A DNA stretch of 64,000 nt, from positions 137,389 through 201,388 of the forward strand of contig CAVXDP010000015.1 in assembly GCA_963760485.1 (NCBI GenBank), in the 5' to 3' direction. The number at the start of each line of letters is the position of its first letter. Within the stretch, counting starts at the first letter, position 1. Source of the stretch: Candidatus Bathyarchaeota archaeon (GTDB lineage Archaea > Thermoproteota > Bathyarchaeia > 40CM-2-53-6 > CAVXDP01). Positions 8,682-44,786 of the stretch are shown one piece after another. The notes beneath the pieces are model-generated. The model was given only the letters and a program-made list of their open reading frames with translations, was not told where the DNA came from and did no database searches. The translations under genes and the position numbers were made by a program.

Positions 8682-10214
8682 TTAGTTCCCTTATTGACCG
8701 AGCAAGATGTCACTAGGTCCTCTGTATCCCTCTTTGGAAGGTCAAGGTCTCTATGGGCCCAGATACCTTCCTTAAGTAGCTTTGGCGCTCGCAACCTAGA
8801 TGAAATGGGCTTATTTCGAAGGATTTTACTTTGACTTCCTTTGTGAATTTGCTTCTTTTAACCTAATGAGCTAGTTTCAGGATGTTTGCTTGCTTGCCCG
8901 TTATGTAAGGATCCAGAAGACGTACCTTAGACCTTTCAATGCAGTGATATTACAGAAGGTCTTTAGAGGCTTGCATCCAGCAGTATGAAGAATCCATAAG
9001 AACGTCTTGTAGAACGCAAGAAGCAGCAGAAGAAGGAACGCATCGTGCTTTGCTAAGGCTTTGCTTATGTTCTATCGTTCCTTGAAGGGCCTTTATCTGC
9101 TTCTATTGTGAAAGAGCTAGGCATATCAAGGCATAGTAGAAGAGAGCATAAGCAAAGAAGTCAAACGCTTTCAGCATACTCCTAAGTCAGTACAGTCTGC
9201 CATCTACTAGTATCATATTTTCTGGCCTTTGTCTGCTTGTAACCATATGCTATGATCATTGTACTGGAATGATGTTCTTTGAATGCTCTTGGTAGCACAA
9301 GAGCATCTCATGTGAGTTCCTTTGATGGTCTCAGAGAGTAGAAAGAGCTAATTGTCGCAAAATGAGATTTTTAGACAAATTTACAAAGGAGCTGTAAGCC
9401 AGTTTTGGCTATTTACCTCATTTCTCGCTTATTTGTTCCTGTAGACCTTTCGCTTAGAGAGGTTCAGTCCAAAATGAGCCTCATGAGCCTATCTAGAGAC
9501 TTCAGTCGAAGGAGAGGTTCCAGAGGCGCGTCCTGCTTGTTCGGAGGAGGAAAAGAGCGTATTGGTGATGGTTTCTAATGTCCTTCGAGGGCTTTGCGGC
9601 AATCTGGTTATTCTTCAAGGGTCTTCTGGTGCTTCTTCGGCTTTCTTAGAGCTTGATGTCTTCTTTGCAGGCTCTCTGAATCCTTGCTAAGGAGCTTTGC
9701 TGTCTTCTTGAGCCTCTTCTTCTAAGGGATAGATATTCATGATAATAGTTCTTGGTGAAGCCTTCAGAGTGTACTAGAAGCCTAGTTCTCCTGCTCACCT
9801 ACGTTTTCACTGCCTGTCATCGCCTTCATCACTGCTTATCATCACTTTCACCAATGCTCATCACTGCCCTCGTCACTGTCTTCGGGCTTGTGTACACATT
9901 TGCCTGTATCCGTCACTCGAAGTTGACTATTAGACGCCTAGCACTTGTTGTGGTTGAACTTTGAACCTCTGTGGTGGTTAAGCTTGTAGTTATGCCAGTA
10001 CCGACAATCGTCCCAGCCTGTGAGAAACCTGATCGAGGCTCCGCAGTCACAGACTCCCCAGATGCTGCAGTTAGCAATCGACGGAGTCCACGTACAGGTT
10101 CCAGGCGTAGCGCTTGACCATCTCATCGTTTGTGTTTTTCTCCTTCAGTCGTTCCCATTGCCCGGTAGCATCAAAAACTTGAACTGGAATACGGTAATCT
10201 AATAGCTCTTCAAA

Positions 10215-11072: not shown

Positions 11073-11216
11073 CTGGGCCTTATCATCATGATGATGGGGT
11101 TCGGCTTACCGCTATTCCTGCTCTCGCTGAATGGTCTGATGCCTTAACGGGTAAGAACGCCGAAAAATTCTACAAATTCCAGAGTATACCAGTACTCATC
11201 CACTGTCTCCATATGG

Positions 11217-11259
11217 AGAGAACAGTTTAACCCCGACGATAACGTGGGACAAGATCCCA
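11217..11259 (+). repeat. Island repeat copy A: conserved box GAGAACAGTTTAACCCCGACGATAACG plus hairpin TGGGA-CAAGA-TCCCA
   Basis: Direct sequence reading: a 5-bp perfect stem immediately after the conserved box. Confidence 0.8.
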
Positions 11260-11337
11260 GTCGAGGCGCTATTTCGGCTTTTGACCTGTATTGCCATGTT
11301 CTTTTGGTCGCGGTACGAAGGTATTCCTTAGATCTGT

Positions 11338-11445
11338 CTAATATGAGTCTCGCATGTCTGATTTCCTCAGCCTGATGTTGCAGAAGGGGCATATTGGCTG
11401 GTAATCAGAGAACTGAGTCTTACATCGATCGCAATACCAACCCAT
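11338..11445 (-). CDS. Mini-ORF (35 aa) with CxxC...CxxC zinc-ribbon spacing (MGWYCDRCKTQFSDYQPICPFCNIRLRK...)
   Basis: Hand-translated; it lies 41 nt downstream of the RHH ORF on the same strand. It is below the ORF-track size cutoff. Weak. Confidence 0.2.
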   Translation of the reverse strand: MGWYCDRCKTQFSDYQPICPFCNIRLRKSDMRDSY

Positions 11446-11486
11446 TAGATGACCCTTCCACTGGATTGAAACAAGTGCGCATGCAT

Positions 11487-11630
11487 CTATTTTTCCTTGG
11501 CAACCCACGTTTTTACGGATTCTTCGACAGCTCTAGATAGGTCGCCCTTTTTCCCACCAAATCTCTCAATAGTCTTAAACCTTAACTTCTTTTCCAGCTC
11601 ATCAGAGAGTTCCACACTGATTCGACCCAT
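11487..11630 (-). CDS. Ribbon-helix-helix (CopG/Arc/MetJ-like) small protein, 47 aa
   Basis: Hand-translated: MGRISVELSDELEKKLRFKTIERFGGKKGDLSRAVEESVKTWVAKEK. The ISVxLxDEL N-terminal beta-strand and following helices are typical of RHH antitoxins/regulators. It is below the ORF-track size cutoff. Confidence 0.4.
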   Translation of the reverse strand: MGRISVELSDELEKKLRFKTIERFGGKKGDLSRAVEESVKTWVAKEK

Positions 11631-12310
11631 TCCAATCACCAACATCAATCTTTATGCAGGATTTGCAGACGTCAGGCGTTCTTCCAGTAAGCAAAATCGT
11701 GGATGCCCGCTGTTGCTTTTCTTGTTATCATTTTCATTCACCCAACGTTTGCTTACCCACCTATCCATATATGTGCTTACCAGCCTATAAGGATATTGGT
11801 TTAATGGTCATCGGGGTTAAACTACAGTTCCTCAACTCACGAGTGTGCAATATACGGCGCCTAAGAGATCTAATGCGATTCGCTAGGGCCTGTTGTTTTC
11901 TGCTCTCTTTCTTTCTCTCATCTTCTATCTATCAGGATCGTAAGGGTGCTTCGGGCTGGTTTCCAAAATAATAATCTGGATTAGAAGGAATAGGTATTGT
12001 ACAAGCGGGTTATAGAAATATCATAGAAGGTGGAAGACGTGAAACATCGAAAGCATGAGAAAGCTCAATCCTACGACAGAATGGGTTACCTCGTATTATT
12101 CAAGGATGGAACAATTCTACCACTTGTGGACAAACCCAACGCCAAAGAAATCGAGCAAATCTTCTGTTAGACTAGAGTCACCATTATTCTGCTAACCCGT
12201 TTGTATGTAAGTCCGGGCCGGCCGAGACAACAACAGATTGTCTGTGAATCCTCTTCTTCAATGTAACATGAGATCTGTAATGTGAGGGACGGCAAGATTA
12301 TATTGGGAAG

Positions 12311-12760
12311 GTGCAAGCGTGCTTTTCCAAGGTATGCATCTTGGCTAAGGAACCAATCTATAAAAGAACGCTTTTGGACCTGGCAGCCGCTTTCTTTCTG
12401 ATAGGCGGAGTCGTCGCCCTAGCTAGTACAATCGTTATGATTCCTATCGCTACAGTCTATCCATTCACACTGAGAGCAGTGACTTTCGTTACACTGGTCG
12501 TACTGGTTGTAGGCATTATTTGTGCCGTGGAAGCTCTGGAATGCTACAGCTTTGCGTCCAAGAGACTACTGCTAAAGGCTGGGATGAGGGGTATAATCGT
12601 TGGAGCAATCCTCCTCAGTCTAAGCGTAGGCCTGATAGGAATACAAGATGTCAGAACCCAGCTGGTGGCCGGAAGCGCGATTCTGATGATAATAGGCGGA
12701 GTGATATGCTATATCTACAGGGAGCCAACGATTGACTTCCACGCTAAAAAGGAGAAGTAG
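12311..12760 (+). CDS. Integral membrane protein (about 4 TM helices), hypothetical
   Basis: The 149-aa ORF is strongly hydrophobic; the start codon is uncertain (GTG at 12311). Confidence 0.35.
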   Translation: MQACFSKVCILAKEPIYKRTLLDLAAAFFLIGGVVALASTIVMIPIATVYPFTLRAVTFVTLVVLVVGIICAVEALECYSFASKRLLLKAGMRGIIVGAILLSLSVGLIGIQDVRTQLVAGSAILMIIGGVICYIYREPTIDFHAKKEK

Positions 12761-12791
12761 AAAAGCATTCTCTGAAACGCTAGGACAACCA

Positions 12792-13511
12792 ATGGCGATT
12801 ATATCTATGAAAAACAAACGCGGGATACTGTCTTTATGTATAATTATTTTGTTCATTTTGGGATCGCTAAACCTCAGTCTCATAGTTGCAGCCGTGTCCA
12901 GTGGCGAATGTTACACAACCAAACGAACTTACCAGTATGGTGAGAATGTGATTGTCAATATCGCCACGTCAACGGGGATCAACAATACCAGAGTGTTGAT
13001 CTATCTCCCAAACGAAGAGGTTAACACCTTTACTATCGGCAGACTTGGCACTGGCGCATGGCAGTTTTCAATAGGTCCCGCGGGGTCTCCAATTGGCCAA
13101 AGGATGGTAGTGTTGTTGGACGGTTCAACAACTCTTTCAACAACCTACTATACGGTTGTTCAATCCTCTTCAACAACTACCATAACCGTTGCTACGGCAA
13201 CAAGAACATTGACGGGAACCGTTACGCAAACCTACACAGTCACCCGATTCACAACAACTTTTCAAACAACAACCGAATATCAGACATCAACAGTATCCAG
13301 AACTAAGACCGAATCCTCTACGGTGACGATGCAGACCACGACGGTCACAACCCAGTATCAGACGCTATCCACGTCCAGTACCGTTACGCAGATGTACACG
13401 ATCATTTTGCCAATACTGGGTCCAATGACTCTTGTTTACACATTGTTAGCAGTGATAGTCCTTCTCATCTTTGCCATAGTATTTGTAGCTTCGAAAATGG
13501 CCAAAAAATAG
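12792..13511 (+). CDS. Secreted/surface protein with signal peptide, Thr-rich stalk and C-terminal TM anchor
   Basis: The product starts MAIISMKNKRGILSLCIIILFILGSLNLSLIVAA (signal-like). It has a long T/V/Q-rich low-complexity tract (TVTQTYTVTRFTTTFQTTTEYQTSTVS...) and a C-terminal hydrophobic helix with a KK tail. Confidence 0.5.
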   Translation: MAIISMKNKRGILSLCIIILFILGSLNLSLIVAAVSSGECYTTKRTYQYGENVIVNIATSTGINNTRVLIYLPNEEVNTFTIGRLGTGAWQFSIGPAGSPIGQRMVVLLDGSTTLSTTYYTVVQSSSTTTITVATATRTLTGTVTQTYTVTRFTTTFQTTTEYQTSTVSRTKTESSTVTMQTTTVTTQYQTLSTSSTVTQMYTIILPILGPMTLVYTLLAVIVLLIFAIVFVASKMAKK

Positions 13512-13900
13512 TTGCTCATAGAGATGGCATCTTCGGATTCGCTAAGGTGTTGGGTCGTGAGAAGAGAATAGTTCTACTTTGTTTTTCTCGGTTGGCAAGC
13601 AAACTGGCGAGTGCAAGATACTCTCTGTCAGTATCGCTTACCAGTCTTCTTCACTGGGTTGTTCGTCCTCTTCTTCCACGTCTTTTTCTTCGTCCATTCT
13701 GATTATCACCGAAACGAGCGACCATCCCTTCTAGCTAATAATACTTATGATTACTAAGCATGGGCTTTTTCCGGGTGAACAAACTTTCAACAAGAGTAGC
13801 ACGTTTTCTAGGACACCAATTCGATGAGAGAAAACAAATCGCTGAAAGAATGGCTGAGTTCTATGATAAGCGAAGTGCAGTGGTACACGGTGAGAATGTT

Positions 13901-13944
13901 GAAAAGCAGTTTAACCCCGACGTTATCGTTGGTTAAGATCCCAA
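13901..13944 (+). repeat. Island repeat copy B: GAAAAGCAGTTTAACCCCGACGTTATCG plus hairpin TTGG-TTAAGATC-CCAA
   Basis: Direct reading. The stem sequence differs from copy A but pairing is retained. Confidence 0.75.
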
Positions 13945-14045
13945 TCCTCTTGGGTAACGTTTTGCCAGGTTGGTTTCGGTTAGCATCAGACGATCTCTCA
14001 CTCAACAGAGCAAACTCAATTGTAGCCAGCATCGAATTGAGTTGG

Positions 14046-14066
14046 TTTATCCCCGACGATATATCC
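14046..14066 (+). repeat. Island repeat partial copy B': TTTATCCCCGACGATATATCC
   Basis: Direct reading. It shares the CCCCGACGATA core, lies about 100 bp after copy B, and is preceded by the 7-bp inverted repeat CTCAATT...AATTGAG. Confidence 0.5.
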
Positions 14067-14134
14067 GATTAAAGAGATCTAATCATTTGATATGATCCTG
14101 ACGCAGCTCTTAAGTTAGGGACAACGAAACCAAT

Positions 14135-14608
14135 GTGTGGCGAATATGTTTGGTCAAAGAGGGAGATAAGGCTCCGGACTTCACTTTGCAGGCAGATGAT
14201 GGACGTGAAGTGTCACTCAAAGATTATCAAGGTAAGAAAGTAGTTCTCTATTTCTATCCAAAAGATGACACTCCTGGTTGTACTCGTGAAGCTGCTGAGT
14301 TTAGGGACACAATAAAAGAGTTGGAGAACGAGAACGCTGTAATAGTCGGCGTGAGCAAAGACAGTGTTGAATCCCATAAGAAATTCAAGGAAAAGTATGG
14401 GCTACCTTTTACATTGCTTAGCGATCCTGAAGCCAAAGTCTTAAGACTCTATGAGGTTTGGAAAAAGAAAAGCCTCTATGGTCGCGAGATGATGGGTACA
14501 GAGCGAACCACCTTCCTGATAGATGAGAAGGGGATAGTCAAGAAAGTATATCGGAAGGTGAAGGTTGAAGGACACGCAAAAGCCTGTCTGATGGACTTGA
14601 AGTCTTGA
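14135..14608 (+). CDS. bcp: Peroxiredoxin, Bcp/PrxQ-type thiol peroxidase
   Basis: It has KAPDFTL, YFYPKDDTPGCTREA (peroxidatic Cys) and the AhpC/TSA fold. The true start is probably TTG at 14150 (MVKEGDKAPDF). Confidence 0.8.
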   Translation: MWRICLVKEGDKAPDFTLQADDGREVSLKDYQGKKVVLYFYPKDDTPGCTREAAEFRDTIKELENENAVIVGVSKDSVESHKKFKEKYGLPFTLLSDPEAKVLRLYEVWKKKSLYGREMMGTERTTFLIDEKGIVKKVYRKVKVEGHAKACLMDLKS

Positions 14609-14723
14609 TGCGTAGAGCGCCTAACTTGTCGTAGGTTTCCATCTTCTTCTTCGACTATATGCCCATTCAATCTGATCCGGTGCAGTCCAGAAGCATATAC
14701 CTGCGCAATCACAGCATGTATAC

Positions 14724-15044
14724 TCAGCGAAACCAATGTTGAAGTTCGATGACATTGCCCTCGGGGTCAGTAACGTAGACGATTCTAGCCTTACCTGCAC
14801 CATCGATCTCCGTGGTAACGATTTTTCCAACATCGCTGCCACCTGCTGCAATCACTGCATCATGTGCTTGGTCCACATCATCTACTGCAAACGCAATGTG
14901 GCCAAAACCGGGGCGATTGACAGCGGTTCCAGGCTTTTCGGTCTCAACATCGTACTGAAAAATCTCGATCGTTGGACCAGTGTTACCGTAACCCGGCGCA
15001 CGCAAGTGTGCGCCACGAATATGAGCAGATCTTATGCTTGTCAC
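14724..15044 (-). CDS. Glyoxalase/bleomycin-resistance (VOC) family protein
   Basis: The 106-aa product has HIAFAVDDVDQAHDAVIAAGG ... DPEGNVIELQ, typical of the VOC superfamily. Confidence 0.7.
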   Translation of the reverse strand: MTSIRSAHIRGAHLRAPGYGNTGPTIEIFQYDVETEKPGTAVNRPGFGHIAFAVDDVDQAHDAVIAAGGSDVGKIVTTEIDGAGKARIVYVTDPEGNVIELQHWFR

Positions 15045-15284
15045 GTCATCCAGCCACTGACCTGAGAGATCACGCTCAGGCGGAACTAGTGCGCAGCCAA
15101 AGACCTCAATGTAAAACTTGGCAAGACGTTTCCAATCTTGCGCAACGATGTTCGTGTGAACAAATCTAGCATTTGAAACAGTTCCCGTTTTCTACTCCTC
15201 CTCAACCACTACCATATGGACTGAACTGGGATCTAGACGATGTTCATGTATTACTCCTGTACACGATTGAAAACGTTTTGTCCC

Positions 15285-15321
15285 GAAAAACAGTTTAACC
15301 CAGACGATAACGTGAGATAGG
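15285..15321 (+). repeat. Island repeat copy C: GAAAAACAGTTTAACCCAGACGATAACGTGAGATAGG, with a degenerate hairpin
   Basis: Direct reading. The box has C to A at one position and the downstream hairpin is lost. Confidence 0.65.
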
Positions 15322-15431
15322 TGCAGGAACCAGTTGGTATCAGTTGGCGGGTAATGCTTACGCGCCATTCGGAGCCGTCTTAACAGAAAGCACAGGTGAC
15401 TTGATATTCGGAATCAACTTCACCCAGTTGA

Positions 15432-18400
15432 ACCCCCAAGCAACGGATCAGTACTTTATACTATGGTCTAACGATTTATCTGCCACCGGAATTCAAGCCG
15501 CCAGTGGACTGGGCAACGGCTGACACTTCGAATATTATTACGACCATTACAAACGATTACAGCGTCATCTACGTTTGGAAGGCCGATGTGAAAGATCCCT
15601 TCGGACCGGGCTGGTGGGTTATCTACATACGTGCCCCCGGCGGTGGAGAATCCTCACACTCCATTATGATTTTCTCGCATGATAACGGATACAAGGAATG
15701 GTACTATGTTCGTGTGAACGGTATGACTGCGCCTAAGATTGCTGGTCGATACTTTTTCAAAATGTTCCTTGGCGAAAGCTATCCAATCATGAATGCGGTT
15801 AATCGTGACGGTTCCACCGTGAACCCGGACAGATTGCCGGTGCTGAACACGATGCCTGCGGAGAACTGGCCTGTAATGCTTGTGAAAGGTGAAGTTGATC
15901 CAGGCATTATTGAAGGGACAATTCGCTACGGTGCATGGAACCAAGCATTATACAATAAACCAATTCAACTTCCAGGCCGAGTTCGTGCGGTTGGAGTTGC
16001 AGATGACCCCTATACTGGTGCTAGTACAGGTCGTGCAGTTGAAGCTCGTGGATACTTTAACGCCTCAGCGAAAGGTCACTATGAGGTTGAAGGTGTAGCT
16101 CCAGGGGTCTATGACATTTATGCGAGTGCAGCTGGATACCCGGAAATGAAAGTTGCAAGCGGTGTAAAGATTATTGCAGGTAAAAGTTTCCACATGGATT
16201 TTCTATTGCAACCAGGTCCAATCATTACAGGTGTAATCTATAGCAAACACAGCTTCGGAGAAGTTAGCATGGTCGAGTACACGTCCAGTAACAGTAGAAA
16301 TCTATGACAGCAACGAATGGCCAGTAGCGAAACCAGGTTATGGCTGGGATTCTGCTGGAAATATCATTTGAACAGGGAACAGGCGAAGTATGGACTGATA
16401 TGGGTTACAAAGTTGTTAATGCACACCTGAAGAGTTTCTCACCAATCAATTTGACCCAAGCACCATTCACAAGTTATGTAGACTGGAAACGTAATCTATG
16501 ATCCAGCTAAAGGCTACGCTGATCTTCTGCACCCTGGCACTGTTTCGTTTTCTAGTCTAAGGGAATGTTCCTGGTGGACAACCTAAGCTAGTTGCATTTC
16601 CATGGGAGGGTCCCAAGAATCCATCGAGTTGCTTTACCATCAAGTTTCCTGGGGTCATGAATGAGTACTCTGATATTCCAGATGATCTAACGTCTCAGAA
16701 AGATAATTATGGCTTGTTCAATGGGGTTGGTCCAGCGCAGTACTGGTGGGTTGACAAACTAGGCCAATGGACGAATGGTGGCGGATCAAATAGTTTCCGT
16801 TATCAATTTGGAATCAAAGGATACTACGGTGCACCAATGGAATTCGACGGTCACATGCCACAAGTCTGTGCAAGCTGGGTTAACGGGTTGACCGCAGGCA
16901 CATACTACCTCCGTTCATGGATCAATGGCTACGTCCAAACTGATGTTAGCGGCACATACGTAGATTATCCATTCAGTGTCGCGGCACAGGAATGGGCTGG
17001 TGACATTAACACTCCAATGGACCTTGAAACGTCAAGCTGGATCAACAAGACTGTACACTTCCACGATTTGCCAGGCACCTTGCAGACAAGTCCGATTCGC
17101 GGACCAGATCCCTACAGGTACATGATCGCTGAAGCATACGACGCAGACAATGTGCTTGTTGCAATGAACTTTACACAGGTTCCAGTGAAAGACCGATACG
17201 GCAATCTAGTGAGTGACTGGAACATTACATTGAACGGATTCGGAATGGCAGGGCCGGTCTACATTATTCCGTCTGATTTATGGGTTGACTGAAGTGATTC
17301 TCGATGGTATTCCACCGGGCATGAAGTTCTTCCTGTACAGGTATAGGCATATCCGTGATTATGGCATGATGCCAGGCACTTACACGATCCGCGTCTACAT
17401 GAGAGGCTATGTGCAACAAGAATTTGAGATGGCTTCAATTAGTTTGAGCCAAAGTCCAGCGATAATCAGCAACCACATGTATCGTGGAGCAGGAATCAAC
17501 ATGACTATCTACTCAATTGACTGGGAGCATCCACGCGTCGACAGGCCATGGAACTTTCCATGGCGATGACATAAGAGTTCACGTGTTCAATGAGGCAGGA
17601 GACGACATGGGCCTACGTCAGATGGTGGGATGGGACGACAGGCCAACTATAGATACTTGGGTTGTGCCCAACACAGACTCAGCGGTAGCACAGTAGTTCC
17701 AAGCAAGGATTGGCCTGCACCAGCCCGGCTAGTAAGCTCAAGTTCAACGGTTCAACAGTTCTAGAAGTTTATGGACCGGACACGGGTGGTGGCTGGTTCC
17801 CATTCCGCTCTTAACTTTACACTTCCAATCTTAACGGCCCTGGCAGTACAGATGCGGGGACTGGTATATGGCTTGAATTCGGTTATTATAGAAGCGGGTT
17901 CTTGACAAGTCCAAACCTGTACAGAACTGCTGATCTGAAGACAAGGGTTGCCTTAGAAACTGGTACATACGACGCTTAAGGCGTGGACGCTTGGTTACGT
18001 CCAGAAGAAGGATATCACAGTCTACGCGCAGAAAGGATCACAGGCAGATACCAAGCTCAACCTAGTCATAGGCGTGAACATGACGGTTAACATCAAATTC
18101 AAGAAGGAAGGCATCTTCACACACGTACCATTTGACCAATCCTTTAGGATAAGAGTCTTCGACGATAACAATGGGCTAGTTGCCACATGGTACACCAGCT
18201 ATCTTCGATGATAGTACCTTCTACCATGGCGTGCTTCCACGATGCGGTCAACAGAGCCTACGGTGGATTCATGGAAAGGGGACCAGTGACATAATTCTGA
18301 GCGACGAATGAAGACTTTGGTCAGAGACAGCACCACCGACCTACAGGTTGTACTGGCTGGAAACTACTACTACTTCGAAATCAACAGCTATGGCTATGTT

Positions 18401-19062
18401 CCATTTGAAGAAAGAAACTATGCTCTATCCAGGGCTAATGGAATCGATGGGTGGCCGAATTATCAGGGTACTTGGCGCATCGAGGTTGATGCAGTCAACC
18501 TGGTACTATAGCGACAAGTGGTTCCCAGCTCCTCCAGGCCTGCTACTTGGTGAAAGCTACCACATAATCAACGGCGTCGAAGGACCGTACAACGGCATGT
18601 GGAAGTATAACCATCTTGGCCCATGGGAACAGAAGATGGTTGTTACAGTGCCAAATGCTCACTTGGGAGCTGAAGCAAGCGTCGTCTTCGAACTAGACCA
18701 ACGAGGCCTAGTCTCAGGACAAATCGCAGGATTCAGTTGGAGTGACGAACTCCGTCCAACAAGTTGGGCAACAATCACAGGCAGCTGGTGCAGGCGGGAC
18801 CTTCACAGTCTACTCGGCAGACGGATACTATGACATGTACCTTCCAGCAGGCAGCTACGAATTCAGCGTCATGGAAAGCCCAGGACACGCAGCAAAGAGC
18901 GCAAGCATAACCGTCAGTACAGGCCAACAAGTGACAGGATATAGCTTCTACTTAGAAAGAACCAACGTTCCAATTCCAGAATTCGGACCAGTCATAGCAC
19001 TAGTAGCAGCACTCGGAGCATCACTGTACGTGCTACGGAGAAACCGCAAAAAGGGCAACTAG
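15432..19062 (+). pseudogene. Giant surface protein (about 1200 aa if joined) with a PEF-CTERM-like C-terminal sorting tail. It is fragmented across at least six ORFs in three frames: 15504..16307, 16657..17292, 17285..17569, 18308..18511, 18348..18833 and 18742..19062
   Basis: Coding-like translation hops between frames, with stretches of 350 and 740 nt lacking any long ORF. The C-terminus is ...NVPIPEFGPVIALVAALGASLYVLRRNRKKGN (PEF, then TM helix, then basic tail). The disruption density is several-fold higher than in neighbouring genes. Genuine decay or mis-assembly of a hypervariable gene cannot be distinguished from sequence alone. Confidence 0.4.
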
Positions 19063-19191: not shown

Positions 19192-19234
19192 GAGAACAGT
19201 TTAACCCCGACGATATCATGGGATAACATCCCAT
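19192..19234 (+). repeat. Island repeat copy D: GAGAACAGTTTAACCCCGACGATATC plus hairpin ATGGGA-TAAC-ATCCCAT
   Basis: Direct reading. It has a 6-bp perfect stem and lies about 130 bp after the PEF-CTERM gene end. Confidence 0.8.
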
Positions 19235-24412: not shown

Positions 24413-27194
24413 GGTCGCCGGCTAGTTCTCTTTTTGTCAACAGATATACTTGAAGCGGTGATTCGAGTCAGGTGCTTTCGAACCTCCTCGGCTACTAGTG
24501 GAAGAGGCGCGAGTAGGAGGAGAACCGCCCAGTTTTGGATTGTTAGTGGATACGTTCCAAAAATGGTCTGGAGAGGAGGAAGGTAGACGATTCCAGATAA
24601 TATTATGATTTGGGATGCAATCCCGAACCAGATCCACTTGTTACTGAAGGGCTTCACCTCTGAAATTGACGTTCTTCCAGTTCTACACGCAAACAGGTTC
24701 GCAGATTGCGCCACGACGATTCCAGCAAGGGTCATCGTGGTCCCCTGCCGATAAACTGGGTTATCTGAAGCTAGTCCCAACCCAAATCTCCATCCTCCAG
24801 CAATCCAAACAAGGAAACAACCAGTCAAGGACACTAGAGACACGAATATTCCAAGGAAAAGAGATCTTGCGATCGTTTTGGAATCGAAGAGTCTTTCTTT
24901 TGGACTTCGTGGAGGTCTATTCATGATGTGAGGTTCTGGGGGTTCGATGCTCAAGGCCAATGATGGAATGACCTCTATACCCAAATCGATTGCAAGAACT
25001 TGAGTGACAAGTAGTGGGAGTGGGATTCCGACTAGGACAAAAAGCAGGTAAGGTATCAGTTCGGCCCAGTTGTGCGCGAAGACATACGTTATGAACTTTC
25101 GTATGTTGTCATAGATTGCTCTGCCGCCTTCGATAGCCTTTGAGATCGATGCAAAACTATCGTCAAGCAAGATCATATCCGCAGATTCTCTTGCAACATC
25201 GGTGCCAGCCACACCCATCGCTACACCTATGTCCGCTTTCTTCAAAGAGGGCGCGTCGTTGGCTCCATCACCTGTGACCGCGACAATCTCTCCCATCGAC
25301 TTGAGTAGGGACACGATCCGCATCTTGTGTTCTGGCGTTGCTCTTGCAAAGATTATTTCTCCGGCATCAATCTGCCTGATCAAGTCGGGCTCAGTGAGTT
25401 TGTCCAGTTGGGCTCCAGTCAATACCGTACATTTTTCCGTCTCAACGATCCCTACTTGTCGGGCTATCGTGAGTGCGGTAGGTCCATAATCTCCCGTAAT
25501 CAAGATGACCCTTATGCCCGCCTTCTTCGCGTCCATGACGGCTTTTCTAACCTCGGGTCTGGGCGGGTCTAGGATTCCAAGAAGACCAATGAATACAAGA
25601 TCTGTTTCAACGGTATCGACATTCCATTCATGCAAGTCGGGTGGTAGTTTCCGATAGGCCACTGCCAGAACGCGGAGACCCTCCTCACCAAGTCTCCTTT
25701 TTTCAAGATTTATCTGATCAATATCTTCCTGAGCTAATGGGTGCACCTCAGACCCGTCAAGAACATGGGAACAGACATTGAGTGTCTCTTTTGGAGCTCC
25801 TTTGACGTAGGCGATGTTGCCGTCCTTTGTCTTGTGAATTGAAGACATCCTTTTTCTTATGGATTCGAATGGCAAGAGTTTGACTAATGGTGCATCAACT
25901 AGTTCGTTCTGCACGTTCAAATCCATCTTCAACGCCAATGTCAGAAGCGAGCCTTCAGTCGGGTCTCCAAGTACTCGCCACTGGCCACTTGTATCCGTAG
26001 GTGGAATCAGTTTCGAACTATTGCAGAGCGACGATGCCTTGAGGAGTATTTCTACACCTTTTCTCTCGCCGAGCTCTAGTTTCCGATCTCCAATGAGTAG
26101 TTCTCCTGATGGGCCGTAACCCTCGCCGGTCACGTCAATCGTTTCACCATCTATCCAGATCTTCTTGACTGTCATTTCTCCTTTGGTTATTGTTCCCGTC
26201 TTGTCGGTGCAGATCACTGTGGTGCTGCCGAGAGTCTCCACTGCTGAAAGCCTCTTGACTAGAACATTCTGCCGGGCGAGTCGAACAACTCCGAGGGCTA
26301 GCGCGGTTGACACAGTAACCTGCAAACCCTCTGGAACACATGCAACCATGACGCCTATCATGAAAAGGAATCCTGTTAGTGCATTCATGTGGAACCAGAG
26401 TGTATCCACCATGAAGAATAGTACCCCAACAGTGATCGCGATCACAAAGTCGATCTTGCGGCGTGCGATATCTGGTTCTGAAGTGGACTAACCGTATCTT
26501 CTATTGACTCGCTCATACCGGCAATTTTTCCAAATTGAGTTCTCATTCCGGTGTCATACACAACCGCTCTTCCAAAGCCCGACGCCACGGTGACTCCCAT
26601 GAACACAAGGTTCGTTACGTCGAGCCAACTTGCGGTTTCTGCCTGCATGGGATCAGCGTCTCTGGGTTGCGCCTCCGACTCTCCTGTTAGGGCGACGTTA
26701 TTCGTAGAGAGATCAAAAGCTTCCACAACACGTGCGTCTGCTGGAACGCGATCACCTTCATTTAGAATCAGTAAGTCTCCAGGGGCGATATCCTCAGCCT
26801 GGATTACCTTGGTTTCACCGTCCCTTACAACAGTCGCACGAAAAGGCAGGAATCTTTTAAGGGCCTTTACCGCCCTTTCAGCACGATATTCTTGAACGAA
26901 ACTCAATATTGCATTTAGAATAACCACCACAAGAACTGAAATGCCAAACTCAACCATGCCAGTTACGAAAGCCAAAATAGCGGCTATTATCAGGAGAGCG
27001 CTAAAGAGATCTTTGAACTGAGAAAGAAACTTGTTGAGAGCTGCTGCCCGCTTTGGTTCAGACAGCCGGTTCGGGCCGTACTCCTGCAGTCTCTTTTGAG
27101 CTTCGTCTTCTGTTAATCCTGTTGATCTTGTCTCTAACCTCTTGAGTACATCTGAAACCGGCCATGTATAGATTGGCAAAGAGTCCTTCACCAC
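24409..27194 (-). CDS. P-type cation-transporting ATPase (about 925 aa), split into two ORFs (26442..27194 N-terminal, 24409..26445 C-terminal), consistent with a single-base indel near 26445-26470
   Basis: The N-terminal ORF carries TGES (NVALTGESEAQP) and the TPLQ-like SPLQNQI segment. The C-terminal ORF carries PEGL, DKTGTIT, TGDGANDAPSL and GVAGTDVA. The ORFs overlap by 4 nt in different frames. Confidence 0.8.
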
Positions 27195-27377
27195 TCAAGG
27201 AAGGGAACCAGTTAGACTTCAGACGCGCTACCCTCGCAAGGAAAACGGGAACTCAAACTGGCTTTAAAAGTCTCTGTCTGAGAAACCGTGAAGGAAGCTT
27301 CTGGCAATAGGTCAGTGCGGCAGCTCAAGGATATCACGGAGAACATCGCGTCTCTGTCTGTCGCACGAGCACTTAGC

Positions 27378-27800
27378 TTACCTGCCCTTGTATCGTTTTC
27401 TTTCCGAGTAACCCGAGGATGGAGATTGCGCCTCCGATAGAGAGGATGGCTGAAACTTGAACATGAACGATGCGTTGGCTGTTGAGAAGAGTGCCACTGC
27501 TATGCCTTCGAGGAAGCCAGTAAGTGCTCTGAGGGTGTTTGTACTCTCTCTCAAGGTATACGCTTGGCTGAGCCAATCTAGAGGAGCAGGCAAGGCGAGT
27601 AACAGGCATATCAGCAGTTGATATTGTAGGGAAAGATCCAGAAAGGCTGATGGCTCAATAATCCAGACTAAGGCGATGAATAGAACAAATCCTATGACTG
27701 TTCCACTGCATCGCGCACAGATATTGAGCCGTCTACTGCCGAGAGGTACTGTTATCCAATGGCCATGTCGTATTAGGATGTTCCAATCGAACTGTCCCAT
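27378..27800 (-). CDS. DUF2085-like membrane protein (CxRCxG motif followed by TM helices)
   Basis: The 140-aa product has ICARCSGTVIGFVLFIALV. Family assignment is from memory and tentative. Confidence 0.3.
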   Translation of the reverse strand: MGQFDWNILIRHGHWITVPLGSRRLNICARCSGTVIGFVLFIALVWIIEPSAFLDLSLQYQLLICLLLALPAPLDWLSQAYTLRESTNTLRALTGFLEGIAVALFSTANASFMFKFQPSSLSEAQSPSSGYSERKRYKGR

Positions 27801-27807
27801 CTAGTGG

Positions 27808-28362
27808 TCACTTTAGCTTCTGACCACAGTATGGGCATGTGACAAAGTCTGGCAGAACAGGTTTTCCGCATCCAGTGCATGGTTTACCAGCGACAAAAGG
27901 CTGCTTAATCGGCAATGATGCCCGGAACATCTGTACCCGTGCCCTTGCGGGCAACTGATAGTTGACCCTTATTGAAGTTCCTCCTTCCTCGGTTTCGGTG
28001 AACTCAAAAGATGTTTCGCCTTCGAGTGGGTCAGAAAGCCGGTACAGGCGGGGTGGCAATGATTGTGTTACAGTGAATCTTTCCTTCGGAACTTTTCTTA
28101 GAGAGAAGCGCGAAGGTTTGGTTGTCTCTATGCTCTGTGTTCGCCAATTCTCGACTTCTTTTTTCACGAGTTCGAAAGCTTCATCTGGTTTGTAGGATGT
28201 GAACCAGATATCGCTTTCGCCAGAGGTGGTCGGTCCAGCGGCACCGCGTTGACCTCTTTTCATCAACATTGGCATCATACAGCAGAGAAGCAGCGGGATA
28301 ATCAGCAAAAGCATTTGCAGATTACCTCCGGGCGCTGCTTGAAGCGTGGTTACAGGAAGCAT
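27808..28362 (-). CDS. Membrane-anchored protein with C-terminal zinc ribbon (CTGCGK...CPYCGQ)
   Basis: The 184-aa product has an N-terminal hydrophobic/Cys-rich segment and a C-terminal CxxC...CxxC. Confidence 0.35.
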   Translation of the reverse strand: MLPVTTLQAAPGGNLQMLLLIIPLLLCCMMPMLMKRGQRGAAGPTTSGESDIWFTSYKPDEAFELVKKEVENWRTQSIETTKPSRFSLRKVPKERFTVTQSLPPRLYRLSDPLEGETSFEFTETEEGGTSIRVNYQLPARARVQMFRASLPIKQPFVAGKPCTGCGKPVLPDFVTCPYCGQKLK

Positions 28363-28512
28363 TCATTTCACCTATATACTGTTTAGGAGCGTACCCTACC
28401 ACGGACCTAGATAATAGCTTTCGCTTTCCTATGTTTTGATAATCGAGAAATTGCTTCAGAGACTCTCTTGTGGCAACCACAAGATCGTGACGTATCTGTG
28501 ATATCGAAAAGT

Positions 28513-28815
28513 CTATTCGACCTTGATTCTTATGGCTGAAAGCTTCTTTTCTTTGAGTGGGACTTTGATGTCGAGGAGACCGTTCTTGAAAGATGCCTTT
28601 GCCTTTTCTGGATCGATCTTTTCTGCGGAATGTATGTGCCCCAAGAACTCTATGTCCTCTTTCTCCGCTCTCACGTAGATGACATCGTCGCGCATTCTCA
28701 AGTCAATGTTCTGCTTATCGACTCCAGGGAGGTCAACAGTTACGAGCAGATTCTCCTCGTTGTCATCGAGACAGGCGAAGCTGTCAGGTTGAACTCTAGG
28801 TTTCCTATGTGTCAC
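28513..28815 (-). CDS. Small heat-shock protein (Hsp20/alpha-crystallin family)
   Basis: The 100-aa product has an alpha-crystallin domain pattern (VDLPGVDKQNIDL...FKNGLLDIKVP). Confidence 0.75.
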   Translation of the reverse strand: MTHRKPRVQPDSFACLDDNEENLLVTVDLPGVDKQNIDLRMRDDVIYVRAEKEDIEFLGHIHSAEKIDPEKAKASFKNGLLDIKVPLKEKKLSAIRIKVE

Positions 28816-28876
28816 ACTGAATTACCACTGGTTGATTCTTTGGTGAGATGATGTAGGTTGGTACAGAAAATACGAT

Positions 28877-29107
28877 TCAGGTTTTCAGTTCTCCCACAAT
28901 CGGAACACGTTCCAAAACTTCTTCACCATGAGGTGCATCCTTGAAAATTTCAGTAAGATCTGCGCCGGCTAGATGCTCAAAGTGCATCCCAGAATCCCAG
29001 AGGCTACTTTGAGTAACATCGTAGACTTTTCCATTGTAGGCTACGTAGGCAGGCCTTCCATCCTTGCCATCGAATTGTTTCAACTCCTCAACCGTGAACT
29101 GTCTCAT
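28877..29107 (-). CDS. Cytochrome b5-like heme/steroid-binding domain protein
   Basis: The 76-aa product has FTVEELKQFDGKDGRPAYVAYNGKVYDVT, a cyt-b5-like fold signature. Confidence 0.55.
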   Translation of the reverse strand: MRQFTVEELKQFDGKDGRPAYVAYNGKVYDVTQSSLWDSGMHFEHLAGADLTEIFKDAPHGEEVLERVPIVGELKT

Positions 29108-29178
29108 CAGACCTCCATCTCCAACGCGAATTTTTCATGGCCTAGTGATCTATATCTCCTTTTCTCAATGCGAATTCG

Positions 29179-30399
29179 CTACGCTAATCCACTCAGCAGC
29201 TTCTCTCTAATATCGCTTACATTAGCTTCCATTCTAATCAGTTTCTCAATTCTATCTGCATCCCGCGTGTAGCCAAGGAGTAATGCTCCTACCATTTTGT
29301 CTCCTTTTAGCACGAATTTTCTATATGCATTCTTCTCATTCACGTCGCAAGAAAGAACCTCGTAGTCAGCTGATGGTGGTGATGTCGTTCCAATAGATGT
29401 TAGAGTAAAATCATAGATCTTCTCTGAGTTTGAGCAGACTCCTCCACAGAACGTTTCATGAATCCCAGATATGTTCGATCCAGCGATAGTGCCTTGCTCA
29501 ACAGCGTTGTTCCAACTCGTGTTTAGCCTGTAATCTTTGTATACGACATCATAAGCTTGGGCAACATCGCCTGCTGCATAGATTTCTTCGATATTTGTTT
29601 GCATTCTATCATTGACAACAATTCCTTTATCGATTCTTATTCCGCTATCTTTCAAGAAATCAACGTTTGGTGTAATGCCTATAGATACACCAACTAATTG
29701 GCACGTTATCTCGGTTCCACTTGTTGTGACTACTCCGGAGACAGCGTCGCTTTGCCCAACAAATCTTTCTACTTCTGTGTTGAAGTCGACTTCAATCCCT
29801 TCTTGCTCTAACCTCTTGGCAATGATGTCTGAAGCTATCTGATCGAGCATAGCCGGCCATAGTCTGTCACCTCTGACAAGCAGGTTCACGTCCAATCCTC
29901 TTTCTCGTAGAGACTGTGCCAGATTCAATCCGAGCAAACCGCCACCAACCACGACTGCCCGTTTTGTTCTAGCGACAAACTCTACCATTGTCCGAGCATC
30001 TTCAAGCGTTCGAGTAGTCATTATGCCTTTCAGATTTGAGCCCAGCCATCTTGGCCTTAATGGTTTTCCACCAACCGCTAGTAACAAATTGTCATATGAG
30101 ATCTCTCTGTTGTCGTCCAGCAGAATCAGCTTCTCCTTGGGAAGAACCTTCGTCACAGTTTTCCCAAGGGTTTGCACGACAGCTTTCTCCTCGTAGAAAC
30201 TAGGGGGGTACACCCTTAGATTCTCGGATTTGCATTTGCCAGCTATGAACCTGGAAAGTAGCCTTCGATAGTAGTAGAGCTGTTTTTCATCGGAGATGAC
30301 GTTTATTCTGGATTCAGAATCATGCTTTCTAATAATTTCAGCAGCTCGAATCCCAGCAGGCCCATTACCAACAATTACATGATTTGTCAAGCTAGTCAT
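29179..30399 (-). CDS. FAD-dependent pyridine-nucleotide-disulfide oxidoreductase (NADH oxidase/CoA-disulfide reductase-like)
   Basis: It has an N-terminal GNGPAG dinucleotide fold, a second Rossmann motif VVGGGLLG and AAGDVA near the C-terminal part. Confidence 0.7.
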   Translation of the reverse strand: MTSLTNHVIVGNGPAGIRAAEIIRKHDSESRINVISDEKQLYYYRRLLSRFIAGKCKSENLRVYPPSFYEEKAVVQTLGKTVTKVLPKEKLILLDDNREISYDNLLLAVGGKPLRPRWLGSNLKGIMTTRTLEDARTMVEFVARTKRAVVVGGGLLGLNLAQSLRERGLDVNLLVRGDRLWPAMLDQIASDIIAKRLEQEGIEVDFNTEVERFVGQSDAVSGVVTTSGTEITCQLVGVSIGITPNVDFLKDSGIRIDKGIVVNDRMQTNIEEIYAAGDVAQAYDVVYKDYRLNTSWNNAVEQGTIAGSNISGIHETFCGGVCSNSEKIYDFTLTSIGTTSPPSADYEVLSCDVNEKNAYRKFVLKGDKMVGALLLGYTRDADRIEKLIRMEANVSDIREKLLSGLA

Positions 30400-30436
30400 C
30401 GCTATTCGATTCTTGGAGACTGCGTATCTTCATCAC

Positions 30437-31006
30437 TTATGACAAGTGAACGCTCATCGAGAGGGCCTCGTCAACTACTCTCCAGTCAACTTCAGTTTCG
30501 ATGCAACCATCGCGTGACAGTGCTACACCCTGGCTTATCGCACCGAATCTCTCGCAGACGAAACCTCCCAATACCAGCTCCTTAAAACACGCGACTCCAA
30601 GACATGCCAAAGGTCTTTCTCGCTTGAGAATGGATCCCACCATGCTACCGCCCGAGAGAACGTAGGCACCTTTGTATCCTAGTTCCAGGGCCCTTGAGAT
30701 AACCCGATGGATTCCACATCTTCCACATTTCTTGCAGACATAACCAGACTCACTCAAAGAGGCTGGGCATTCTCTGGACCTTAGACACTGAGGAAGGAAG
30801 AGTATCCTTTTTTGGAATGGTATTCTGGCAAATGGTGTCTTAGTAGTCGCATTCTTTGTCTTGACGTATACTTCCAGAAGTCTCGTTTCGTCTATGCCGA
30901 TTTTCGCGGCTATCTTCTCGATCTTTGTGAGAGCAATGGCACCGATTCTATGCTCAGCAAGTTTCTCTATCAAGAGCATTGCAGAAGCTTCTTCATTCAG
31001 TGCCAT
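30437..31006 (-). CDS. Cys-rich DUF116-like protein
   Basis: The 189-aa product has CLRSRECP ... CKKCGRCGIH ... several conserved Cys. Family call from memory is tentative. Confidence 0.4.
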   Translation of the reverse strand: MALNEEASAMLLIEKLAEHRIGAIALTKIEKIAAKIGIDETRLLEVYVKTKNATTKTPFARIPFQKRILFLPQCLRSRECPASLSESGYVCKKCGRCGIHRVISRALELGYKGAYVLSGGSMVGSILKRERPLACLGVACFKELVLGGFVCERFGAISQGVALSRDGCIETEVDWRVVDEALSMSVHLS

Positions 31007-31126
31007 TTTGGATTCATCGCCCTCTGCTAAGAGGTATGACCATTAGGAATATCAAGCCTTTGAATATCGATGGTCCATGGTCCAATTATTCAGTGAACAT
31101 TCATTTCCAGCATTTGTTTGCTAGGT

Positions 31127-32476: not shown

Positions 32477-32478
32477 GG

Positions 32479-34931: not shown

Positions 34932-34956
34932 TACTGGGTCAGCTACTGCCGCATTG

Positions 34957-35388
34957 TCATATAGAGGTCTGATTTTTCAACTCGAGAATTCTTTGTGCGA
35001 AGTAGGCTGCGTTCTCGGCGTTATCTATGCCAACGCACGCCACGGGGATGCCTTTCGGCATCTGGACAATTGAGAGCAGGGAGTCCAATCCGCCTACAGC
35101 CTTGTTGACTGGAACGCCGACTACAGGCTTCTTAGTTCTGGCGGCGATGTATCCTGGAAGATGAGCTGCCAGACCGGCTATCGCGATGTAGACGTCTGCG
35201 TCGGAGGATGCTAGGTAAGACTCGAGATCCTTGTAGTTCCTGTGGCATGAGAGGATTTTCGTCTCATAATTCACCGTGAGTTCCCTAAGAACTCCTTCAG
35301 CTTTCCCGGCAATTTCCAGGTCGCTTTTCGAACCGATTATGATCGATACTTTTCCATTCATCTCATTTTCCCCCTTGACGTTATTCAA
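34957..35388 (-). CDS. purE: N5-carboxyaminoimidazole ribonucleotide mutase
   Basis: The 143-aa product has PurE motifs (IIGSKSD..., AGLAAHLPG). Confidence 0.85.
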
Positions 35389-43719: not shown

Positions 43720-43899
43720 AACTATAGCTCCGAACCAGCTTCGTAGTGTGGGCTCTTAAACTATTCTACACAAATTTGAGGAATTTTGAATCGATTAATT
43801 TACACGAAAATGATAAGCACCCACCAAACTCGATCGGAGCATTAGAATCGGCAGTCACCATAGTTGGTCTCTCAGATCATTCGCACTCTCTGGGGTGTG

Positions 43900-44560: not shown

Positions 44561-44606
44561 ATGCTTATTTATCGGCCTAAACGTGCTTAGCCTTGGTCCC
44601 GCGAAT

Positions 44607-44776: not shown

Positions 44777-44786
44777 CATAGTTGTC

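What the first reader, a model, noticed from the sequence alone, without database searches (positions are those of the whole stretch)
15432..19062. Heavily fragmented giant surface protein ending in a PEF-CTERM-like sorting signal
About 3.6 kb of coding-like sequence is distributed over at least six ORFs in all three forward frames, with two stretches (16307-16657 and 17569-18308) lacking any long ORF yet still translating into plausible peptide in pieces. The C-terminus is ...VPIPEFGPVIALVAALGASLYVLRRNRKKGN, matching the archaeosortase-dependent PEF-CTERM layout (PEF motif, one TM helix, basic tail). Disruption density (at least eight breaks) is several-fold above the background indel rate seen in neighbouring genes. 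This suggests genuine pseudogenisation or mis-assembly of a hypervariable, strain-heterogeneous surface-protein gene. Such genes are common targets of diversifying selection.
Basis: partly seen in the sequence, partly recalled or inferred. Interest (0 to 1): 0.5.

Follow-up and report, generated by a model that had tools for sequence, protein, structure and literature searches.

The report
Frameshift-riddled Bathyarchaeia surface-protein gene copy
This is one copy of a large, multi-copy cell-surface protein gene of Bathyarchaeia, broken by about 16 single-base insertions that look more like long-read assembly errors than real gene decay, so it is ordinary.

Summary
Window 15320-19062 (+) is one gene, colinear with intact 1240-1330 aa Bathyarchaeia proteins (best about 70-73% identity). 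It is cut into 17 frame segments by 16 frameshifts, plus one robust in-frame TAA at 17812. It also lacks the first ~97 codons, including the signal peptide.

Fifteen of the 16 shifts are clean one-base insertions between adjacent conserved codons. They are not in homopolymers and share no slippery motif. The repaired protein keeps 150 of 151 family-invariant residues, so there is no sign of substitutional decay.

The same assembly carries gene-breaking single-base indels elsewhere that are absent from 99.3%-identical short-read contigs. Across 80 related loci, broken copies occur in 8 of 18 Nanopore-only MAG loci against 2 of 62 others.

My best reading (about 0.6) is a real surface-protein gene whose frameshifts are mostly consensus errors at a strain-variable, multi-copy locus. 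The 5' truncation, which abuts a local repeat, may be real. A genuine pseudogene (about 0.3) is not excluded.

The tail (PIPEF, one helix, RRNRKK) is archaeosortase-type. It fails the PEF-CTERM model and only just reaches the PGF-CTERM cut-off. Interest is low.

The parts
15320..19062 (+). Fragmented gene colinear with residues ~98-1326 of intact 1240-1330 aa Bathyarchaeia surface proteins. Frame segments: 15320-15454, 15456-16265, 16267-16359, 16361-16480, 16482-~16550, ~16561-17304, 17306-17560, 17562-17612, 17614-17676, 17678-17713, 17716-17970, 17972-18199, 18201-18236, 18238-18291, 18293-18502, 18504-18779, 18781-19059. Stop at 19060-19062.
   Evidence: There are 537 homologues at E<=1e-3. 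In a MAFFT alignment the repaired protein is 73% identical to P0001; it is 69.6% by BLASTP and 75% over the aligned columns of my own alignment.
17812..17814 (+). In-frame TAA, the only stop codon that every reference alignment requires.
   Evidence: The same frame continues on both sides. The other apparent stops (16558, 17290, 17650) disappear with alternative frameshift placements.
16059..16208 (+). CarboxypepD_reg-like beta-sandwich domain, a match below the Pfam cut-off.
   Evidence: PF13620, E=1.7e-4, 22.3 bits against a cut-off of 32.3. Homologues carry precomputed PF13620, PF14686 or PF13715.
18799..18936 (+). Second CarboxypepD_reg-like beta-sandwich domain, also below the Pfam cut-off.
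   Evidence: PF13620, E=7.6e-4, 20.2 bits.
18967..19059 (+). C-terminal sorting-signal-like tail. VPIPEF is at 18967-18984, the hydrophobic helix GPVIALVAALGASLYVL at 18985-19035, and the basic end RRNRKKGN at 19036-19059.
   Evidence: PGF_CTERM 24.6/22.3 bits against 24.5; PEF-CTERM 14.7 against 23. P-I-P nearly invariant and E invariant in 30 homologues. C-terminal helix in the model of homologue P0008.
15286..15319 (+). Truncated copy of a local ~40 nt repeat (core CAGTTTAACCCAGACGATA). It ends exactly where homology to the surface-protein family begins, so it marks the 5' truncation junction.
19192..19233 (+). Full copy of the same repeat, 130 nt downstream of the stop codon.

Best explanation
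Window 15320-19062 is a copy of a Bathyarchaeia-wide, multi-copy (3-5 per genome) family. Its members are ~1250-1500 aa secreted proteins built from tandem beta-sandwich domains. They end in a PIPEF motif, one membrane helix and a basic tail, which is the layout of an archaeosortase-type anchor signal. That makes them cell-surface proteins and possibly S-layer proteins.

The 16 frameshifts are mostly not biological. They are residual single-base consensus errors of a long-read, probably Nanopore-only, metagenome assembly. They are concentrated here because the locus is strain-variable and has paralogues and close relatives in the same community, so the read pile-up used for consensus and polishing is mixed.

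The loss of the first ~97 codons, at a junction with a short local repeat, may be a real rearrangement in the assembled strain.

Shown: the homology, the colinearity, the type and number of disruptions, the intact conservation, the indel differences from short-read contigs, and the association of broken copies with Nanopore-only MAGs.

Inferred: that the source assembly is long-read, that mixed pile-ups cause the insertions, and the surface or S-layer role.
For: 1. Fifteen of the 16 shifts are exact one-base insertions between adjacent conserved codons with no codon lost. That gives p = 2.6e-4 against a 1:1 expectation.

2. The repaired protein keeps 150 of 151 columns that are invariant in 20 homologues, the same as intact family members. 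Neutral decay with 5-10 substitutions per indel predicts 7-15 changed invariant residues, P(<=1) = 6e-3 to 7e-6.

3. The same assembly differs from short-read contigs of the same population by isolated single-base indels outside homopolymers. The contigs are L004 (99.33% over 19.4 kb) and L006 (98.66% over 3.1 kb). These indels split a PmbA/TldD gene (483 aa intact in L004; 343+145 in the window) and a P-type ATPase (250+678).

4. Among 80 related loci from GTDB genomes, broken copies occur in 8 of 18 loci of MFD 'contig_' MAGs against 2 of 62 others, Fisher p = 5e-5. The MFD MAGs are Nanopore-only, assembled with Flye and polished with one round of Medaka (PMC12313526).

5. A second paralogue fragment, P0128 (an internal 457 aa piece), lies on a contig of 251,550 bp, the same length as the window's source contig. 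Related fragments P0010 and P0011 from other NCBI/ENA long contigs end in out-of-frame tails.

6. The locus is strain-variable. The short-read contig of the sister strain stops at window 15143. Its mismatch density rises from 0.9% to 5.4% over its last 261 nt. No protein more than 80% identical to the gene exists in the 5.8-billion-protein collection.
Against: - The 23-fold local excess of indels needs a special cause. Mixed pile-ups are my inference and cannot be checked without reads.
- The insertion bias (15:1) is stronger than in the other broken Nanopore-MAG copies (18:13) or in the window's own background (3:2). That gives p = 2e-3 against that background.
- One in-frame TAA (17812) and the missing 5' end are not indel errors. 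Taken alone they would already make the copy non-functional.
- I could not establish the sequencing technology of the source record.
- I could not obtain a short-read version of this gene itself.
Confidence: 0.6

Rival explanations
1. This is a genuine pseudogene. One of several paralogous surface-protein genes lost its promoter, start codon and signal peptide in a repeat-associated rearrangement. It has since accumulated frameshifts and a nonsense codon in the real genome.
For: - No significant remnant of the N-terminal ~97 residues exists anywhere in the window.
- A truncated copy of a local repeat sits exactly at the junction.
- There is a robust in-frame TAA at 17812.
- The family has 3-5 copies per genome, so losing one is tolerable.
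- The disruption density is 23-fold above the same assembly's background.
Against: - There is no excess of amino-acid change at conserved columns: 1 conservative change in 151.
- The damage is almost only single-base insertions outside homopolymers, with no deletion and no codon loss. From general knowledge, prokaryotic pseudogenes decay with a deletion bias and many more substitutions than indels.
- Copies of this family in short-read and other non-MFD MAGs are almost never broken, 2 of 62.
Confidence: 0.3
2. This is a promoterless, 5'-truncated 'silent cassette' kept as a recombination donor for varying an expressed surface-protein paralogue. It would be analogous to bacterial pilS or vls cassettes, with its boundaries marked by the short direct repeats.
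For: - Amino-acid conservation is fully maintained despite the missing 5' end.
- Direct repeats bracket the gene at 15286 and 19192.
- There are several paralogues per genome.
- The locus is strain-variable.
Against: - There is no evidence of recombination tracts.
- The repeat is absent from all 90 other loci fetched, including 80 family loci.
- Sixteen frameshifts would be imported with any long conversion tract.
- The conservation is explained equally well by an intact gene with sequencing errors.
Confidence: 0.05
3. The gene is expressed through programmed +1 ribosomal frameshifting or transcriptional slippage at many sites.
For: Fifteen of the 16 shifts go in the same (+1) direction.
Against: - There is no shared heptamer, slippery run or stop-codon context. 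The inferred shift points lie 1-82 nt before the old-frame stop.
- More than 100 homologues are single uninterrupted ORFs.
- The gene has no start codon or signal peptide.
Confidence: 0.01

Closest known systems
Archaeosortase substrates with a PGF-CTERM (ArtA) or PEF-CTERM (ArtC) sorting signal. These are described in Haft et al. 2012, as cited in PMC5244752.
   Same: The extreme C-terminus has the same three parts: a short Pro-x-Phe motif (PIPEF), one hydrophobic helix and a basic cluster. It sits on a large secreted multi-domain surface protein. The E of PEF is invariant in 30 homologues. JGI names one homologue fragment 'PGF-CTERM protein'.
   Different: - It fails the PEF-CTERM model (14.7 bits against 23; homologues score 19.9 and 14.5).
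- It is only borderline for PGF-CTERM (24.6 or 22.3 against 24.5).
- It comes from Bathyarchaeia rather than the euryarchaeal lineages for which those models were built.
- No archaeosortase was seen in the window.
Archaeal S-layer and other surface proteins built of tandem Ig-like or CarboxypepD_reg beta-sandwich domains, for example Sulfolobus SlaB.
   Same: - The AlphaFold model of homologue P0008 (pLDDT 75, pTM 0.80) is all-beta and multi-domain with a C-terminal membrane helix.
- Foldseek matches tandem beta-sandwich surface proteins, including SlaB at rank 40.
- Bathyarchaeia cells show an S-layer by electron microscopy (PMC10477458).
   Different: - There is no sequence match to any solved structure.
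- TM-scores are low (0.1-0.35).
- The best fold matches are Gram-positive pilins, that is, generic domain similarity.
- There are several paralogues per genome.
- Lattice formation and abundance are untested.
Frameshift errors in Nanopore-only metagenome assemblies.
   Same: Isolated single-base indels truncate genes that are intact in short-read assemblies of the same population. Broken family copies are concentrated in Nanopore-only MAGs.
   Different: The errors here are not in homopolymers, are almost all insertions, and are clustered 23-fold in one gene.

Membership tests
PEF-CTERM sorting domain (TIGR03024, ArtC substrates) | Score at or above the curated cut-off of the TIGR03024 model (23 bits) | tested here: not met
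   14.7 bits for the window tail; 19.9 and 14.5 for two homologue tails. There was no hit at E<=0.1 in the 116 aa piece.
PEF-CTERM sorting domain (TIGR03024, ArtC substrates) | Three-part tail at the extreme C-terminus: PEF motif, one transmembrane helix, basic cluster | tested here: met
   Direct reading of 18967-19059. P-I-P-E is conserved in 30 homologues. The P0008 model has a helix at residues 1174-1194.
PEF-CTERM sorting domain (TIGR03024, ArtC substrates) | A cognate archaeosortase (ArtC) encoded in the same genome | not testable with these tools
   Only 64 kb of the genome is available. None of about 30 larger window ORFs scanned with Pfam is an exosortase or archaeosortase.
PEF-CTERM sorting domain (TIGR03024, ArtC substrates) | An N-terminal signal peptide, so that the protein is exported | tested here: not met
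   The window copy starts at homologue residue ~98. No significant remnant lies upstream. Intact homologues do have a signal peptide.
PGF-CTERM sorting domain (TIGR04126, ArtA substrates) | Score at or above the curated cut-off (24.5 bits) | tested here: inconclusive
   The score is 24.6 bits when the 45 aa tail is scanned alone and 22.3 bits in the 116 aa piece. Three homologue tails give no PGF_CTERM hit. The motif residue is E, not G.
Genuine pseudogene | Several disabling lesions in the sequence as given | tested here: met
   There are 16 frameshifts, 1 robust stop and a missing 5' end.
Genuine pseudogene | Relaxed selection, seen as excess substitutions at conserved positions | tested here: not met
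   One conservative change in 151 invariant columns, the same as intact homologues. The expectation under decay is 7-15.
Genuine pseudogene | The lesions are reproduced in independent reads or assemblies | not testable with these tools
   No near-identical copy of the gene exists in any collection searched.
Long-read consensus indel artefact | The same assembly shows gene-breaking indels that are absent from short-read assemblies of the same population | tested here: met
   There are 5 single-base indels in 26.5 kb. Two of them split PmbA/TldD and a P-type ATPase that are intact in L004. This was tested on the flanks only, not on the gene itself.
Long-read consensus indel artefact | Breakage of the family tracks the sequencing technology | tested here: met
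   Broken copies are 8 of 18 in Nanopore-only MFD MAG loci against 2 of 62 in others, Fisher p = 5e-5.
Long-read consensus indel artefact | The source assembly is made from long reads | not testable with these tools
   I know only that the source is an NCBI/ENA contig of 251,550 bp.
Long-read consensus indel artefact | The errors lie in homopolymer runs, the usual Nanopore signature | tested here: not met
   The contexts of the 16 sites show no runs longer than 3.
Archaeal S-layer protein | Similarity to a solved or characterised S-layer protein | tested here: inconclusive
   A profile search against PDB sequences gave no hit. Foldseek gave SlaB at rank 40 with TM 0.07-0.15 among generic beta-sandwich surface proteins. 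There is a weak partial hit to the Kustd1514 S-layer model, 15 bits against 1400.
Programmed +1 frameshifting | A shared slippery or stop-adjacent motif at the shift sites | tested here: not met

The most novel reading that the evidence does not exclude
The copy is real as sequenced. It would be a promoterless, 5'-truncated surface-protein cassette, bracketed by a lineage-specific short direct repeat. It would be kept under selection as a recombination donor for varying an expressed paralogue, which would make it an archaeal counterpart of bacterial silent antigen cassettes. An unusual insertion-only mutational process would have to act on it.
Probability: 0.05. Interest if true: 0.7.

Novelty: new member of a known kind. 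Interest (0 to 1): 0.18.

Why it matters
The main value is as a caution. This gene should not be counted as a pseudogene, or as evidence of surface-protein decay or diversifying selection, until reads are checked. The same family is broken in many Nanopore-only Bathyarchaeia MAGs, which would distort pangenome and pseudogene counts.

There is a secondary point. The intact relatives form a large, unnamed, multi-copy family that is a good candidate for the Bathyarchaeia cell-surface or S-layer protein. Its PIPEF-type anchor signal is not captured by the current PEF-CTERM or PGF-CTERM models.

Tried and rejected
- **Source genome and sister-strain copy.** None of these searches gave a near-identical copy.
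  - A genome-contig scan with the N-terminal 398 aa found nothing.
  - A metagenome-contig scan found only relatives at <=67% identity.
  - Exact look-ups of the 211 aa and 267 aa fragments, NrdD, QueT, P0010, P0011 and P0128 found nothing.
  - Two further protein searches with repaired sub-regions found nothing above 80% identity.
- **N-terminus.** A low-penalty frameshift alignment of homologue residues 1-100 to 15046-15319 gives 'FPFSTPPQPLPYGLNWDLDDVHV' against 'FTVGRPTGTLPYRVRDFDPHV'. Its score of 34-39 lies within the range of shuffled DNA (maxima 37-49), so I rejected it as a remnant. No N-terminal piece lies elsewhere in the window.
- **Programmed frameshifting.** There is no common motif.
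- **Known RNA or repeat family for the 40 nt repeat.** Rfam at E<=1 over 10.9-19.95 kb gave nothing. The hairpins are not better than shuffles. The repeat is absent from the 90 other loci.
- **Sequence match to solved structures.** None.
- **Synteny with the loci of P0001 and P0005.** It is not conserved, so it was of no use for judging the flanks.
Full report
**What is in the sequence.** Between about 15.3 and 19.06 kb the plus strand carries coding-like pieces in all three frames. A crude concatenation of these pieces found 537 homologues. The best 120 are mostly uninterrupted proteins of about 1170-1630 aa (the closest ones 1240-1330 aa), apart from a minority of shorter fragments. The few that carry a source name come from Bathyarchaeia or 'Thermoproteota' metagenome bins and are called 'hypothetical' or 'carboxypeptidase regulatory-like domain' proteins.

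I wrote a protein-to-DNA alignment that allows frameshifts and ran it against P0001, P0003, P0004, P0005 and P0012. All five place the window colinear with one protein, from homologue residue ~98 (window 15320) to the last residues (19053-19056; stop at 19060-19062). With the three closest references there are 16 frameshifts. Fifteen skip one base and one skips two. The TAA at 17812 is required by every reference. Three other apparent stops (16558, 17290, 17650) vanish under alternative placements of neighbouring shifts.

**The N-terminus is missing.** Intact homologues begin with a signal peptide and about 70 conserved residues. Nothing in the window matches these. The best low-stringency alignment just upstream is no better than shuffled DNA.

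Upstream lies a divergently oriented glyoxalase gene. It is followed by a truncated copy (15286-15319) of a ~40 nt repeat, which ends exactly where family homology starts. The repeat (core CAGTTTAACCCCGACGATA) has five plus-strand copies, at 11223, 13907, 14043, 15291 and 19197, and one inverted copy near 11808. None occurs elsewhere in the 64 kb, and none is expected by chance. It is absent from the 90 other loci fetched. The copy at 19192-19233 lies 130 nt after the stop codon, so two copies bracket the gene.

**What kind of gene it is.** The pieces give sub-threshold CarboxypepD_reg hits. Homologues carry PF13620, PF14686 or PF13715. An AlphaFold2 model of the close homologue P0008 (40-sequence alignment; pLDDT 75, pTM 0.80) is a chain of beta-sandwich domains ending in one long helix.

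Foldseek against the PDB returns tandem beta-sandwich surface proteins. These are Gram-positive pilins, TIE proteins and SpyCEP-type proteases, with Sulfolobus SlaB at rank 40. TM-scores are low throughout. A family profile finds no solved relative by sequence.

A scan of GTDB species genomes with a family alignment returned 80 loci. Most are in Bathyarchaeia MAGs and a few are in bins labelled as bacteria. There are typically 3-5 loci per genome, for example SPRUCE 232 with four and SRP140028_co1_632 with five. Cultured Bathyarchaeum tardum shows an S-layer by electron microscopy (PMC10477458). A preprint reports predicted S-layer proteins in Bathyarchaeia (10.1101/2024.05.28.596244). A cell-surface role is therefore well supported. 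An S-layer role is plausible but untested.

**The tail.** The last 31 residues read VPIPEF, then GPVIALVAALGASLYVL, then RRNRKKGN. In 30 homologues P-I-P is nearly invariant and the E is invariant.
- Scanned alone, the tail scores 24.6 bits on PGF_CTERM (cut-off 24.5).
- It scores 14.7 on PEF-CTERM (cut-off 23).
- Inside a longer piece, PGF_CTERM drops to 22.3.
- Homologue tails score 19.9 and 14.5 on PEF-CTERM, 16.7 on Loki-CTERM and 13.6 on PEFG-CTERM, all below their cut-offs.

So the tail works like an archaeosortase signal but is not a tested member of either named class. No archaeosortase was found among about 30 window ORFs scanned.

**Real decay or sequence error?** Four observations point to error.

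1. *The lesions are peculiar.* Fifteen of 16 are exact one-base insertions between adjacent conserved codons with no codon lost. They are not in homopolymers and have no common motif. The direction bias has p = 2.6e-4.

2. *The repaired protein shows no decay.* It keeps 150 of 151 columns that are invariant across 20 homologues, and the one change is S to T. Intact homologues show 0-14 such changes. Within the close group its rate of private changes (7.9%) lies between those of P0005 (5.0%) and P0007 (12.6%). With 5-10 substitutions per indel, 7-15 invariant residues should have changed, P(<=1) = 6e-3 to 7e-6. That ratio rests on general knowledge of prokaryotic mutation spectra. The window's own background ratio is about 1 indel to 33 substitutions.

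3. *The assembly has the same kind of lesion elsewhere.* Exact-protein look-ups found short-read (k141_) contigs of the same population. L004 is 99.33% identical to window 26070-45440. L006 is 98.66% identical to 12077-15143. L005 is 99.58% identical to 34163-38177.
   - They differ from the window by five isolated single-base indels, three extra and two missing bases in the window.
   - Two of these split genes that are whole in L004: PmbA/TldD at 32905 and a P-type ATPase at 26457.
   - The substitutions between the strains look like real variation. Six differences fall inside the peroxiredoxin gene and its protein is unchanged.

4. *Breakage of this family tracks technology.* Of the 80 loci, the longest ORF covers less than 90% of the match in 8 of 18 loci from MFD 'contig_' MAGs, against 2 of 62 others. 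Of those two, one has a single stop and the other has no frameshift. Fisher p = 5e-5. The MFD MAGs have contigs up to 2.4 Mb and are Nanopore-only, assembled with Flye and polished with one round of Medaka (PMC12313526). The broken MFD copies have 1-7 frameshifts each.

Two further points fit this picture. The window's source is an NCBI/ENA contig of 251,550 bp. A contig of exactly that length also carries P0128, an internal 457 aa fragment of a different paralogue. P0010 and P0011, from other long NCBI/ENA contigs, end in out-of-frame tails.

**What the error reading does not explain well.**
- The 23-fold local excess (p = 3e-11).
- An insertion bias stronger than in the other broken copies (18:13) or the background (3:2), p = 2e-3.
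- The TAA at 17812.
- The 5' truncation.

For the excess, my inference is that the locus is strain-variable and has close relatives in the same community, so consensus and polishing work on a mixed pile-up. Three things support the variability. The sister strain's short-read contig ends at 15143. Its mismatch density rises from 0.9% (26 in 2806 nt) to 5.4% (14 in 261 nt) over that end. No protein above 80% identity to the gene exists in the collections, although the flanks have 99% relatives.

The truncation at a repeat looks like a real rearrangement. If so, this copy may be non-functional even if every frameshift is an error.

**Verdict.** My confidences are:
- 0.6 for a real surface-protein gene copy, possibly truly 5'-truncated, whose frameshifts are mostly assembly errors;
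- 0.3 for a genuine pseudogene;
- 0.05 for a silent recombination cassette;
- 0.01 for programmed frameshifting.

The remainder is unassigned. Either main outcome is ordinary, so interest is low. Read mapping would settle it.

Noticed in passing
window 11218-11259, 13902-13943, 14043-14062, 15286-15319, 19192-19233 (+); about 11808-11830 (-): A ~40 nt repeat (core CAGTTTAACCCCGACGATA, in some copies followed by a small TGGGA..TCCCA hairpin) occurs six times within 8 kb around the surface-protein gene. It occurs nowhere else in the window, with 0 expected by chance. It has no Rfam match, its hairpins are not better than shuffles, and it is absent from 90 other loci. The sister-strain contig L006 has the 13907 copy. 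Its nature is unknown.
   Followed up: partly
window 32905 and 26457 (also 44059, 27452, 14063): These are single-base indels relative to 99%-identical short-read contigs L004 and L006. The one at 32905 splits a PmbA/TldD gene (343+145 aa against 483 aa). The one at 26457 splits a P-type cation ATPase (250+678 aa). They are probably assembly errors.
   Followed up: yes
window 8682-10205 and 11073-12280: These are two stretches of 1.5 and 1.2 kb with no ORF of good codon score on either strand. The first follows the L22 gene of a ribosomal-protein cluster (L3, L4, L2, L22) where an S3 gene would be expected. No Rfam family reaches its gathering score there.
   Followed up: partly
window 14727-15191 (-): A glyoxalase/VOC gene has an open frame of 155 codons but no in-frame ATG, GTG or TTG before codon 50. 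An out-of-frame ATG at about 15163 suggests another single-base indel or a lost start. The sister-strain contig ends at 15143, so this could not be checked.
   Followed up: partly
window 47164-47277 (+): A 114 nt tRNA match from Rfam (51 bits) that ARAGORN did not call. This is consistent with an intron-containing archaeal tRNA.
   Followed up: no
window 12732-13511 (+): A 259 aa protein with an N-terminal hydrophobic segment, a Thr-rich stretch and a C-terminal membrane helix with a KMAKK end. It looks like a second small surface protein. It is also present in the sister-strain contig L006 and has no Pfam match.
   Followed up: no
window 13760-13936 (+): A 58 aa ORF ending ...YDKRSAVVHGENVEKQFNPDVIVG carries an R-x4-H motif reminiscent of HEPN nucleases. 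One copy of the 40 nt repeat overlaps its 3' end.
   Followed up: no
L012-L091 (GTDB genome loci): The surface-protein family has 3-5 paralogues per Bathyarchaeia genome. It also turns up in bins labelled Methylomirabilota, Acidoferrum and Acidiferrales, which probably reflects binning contamination.
   Followed up: no
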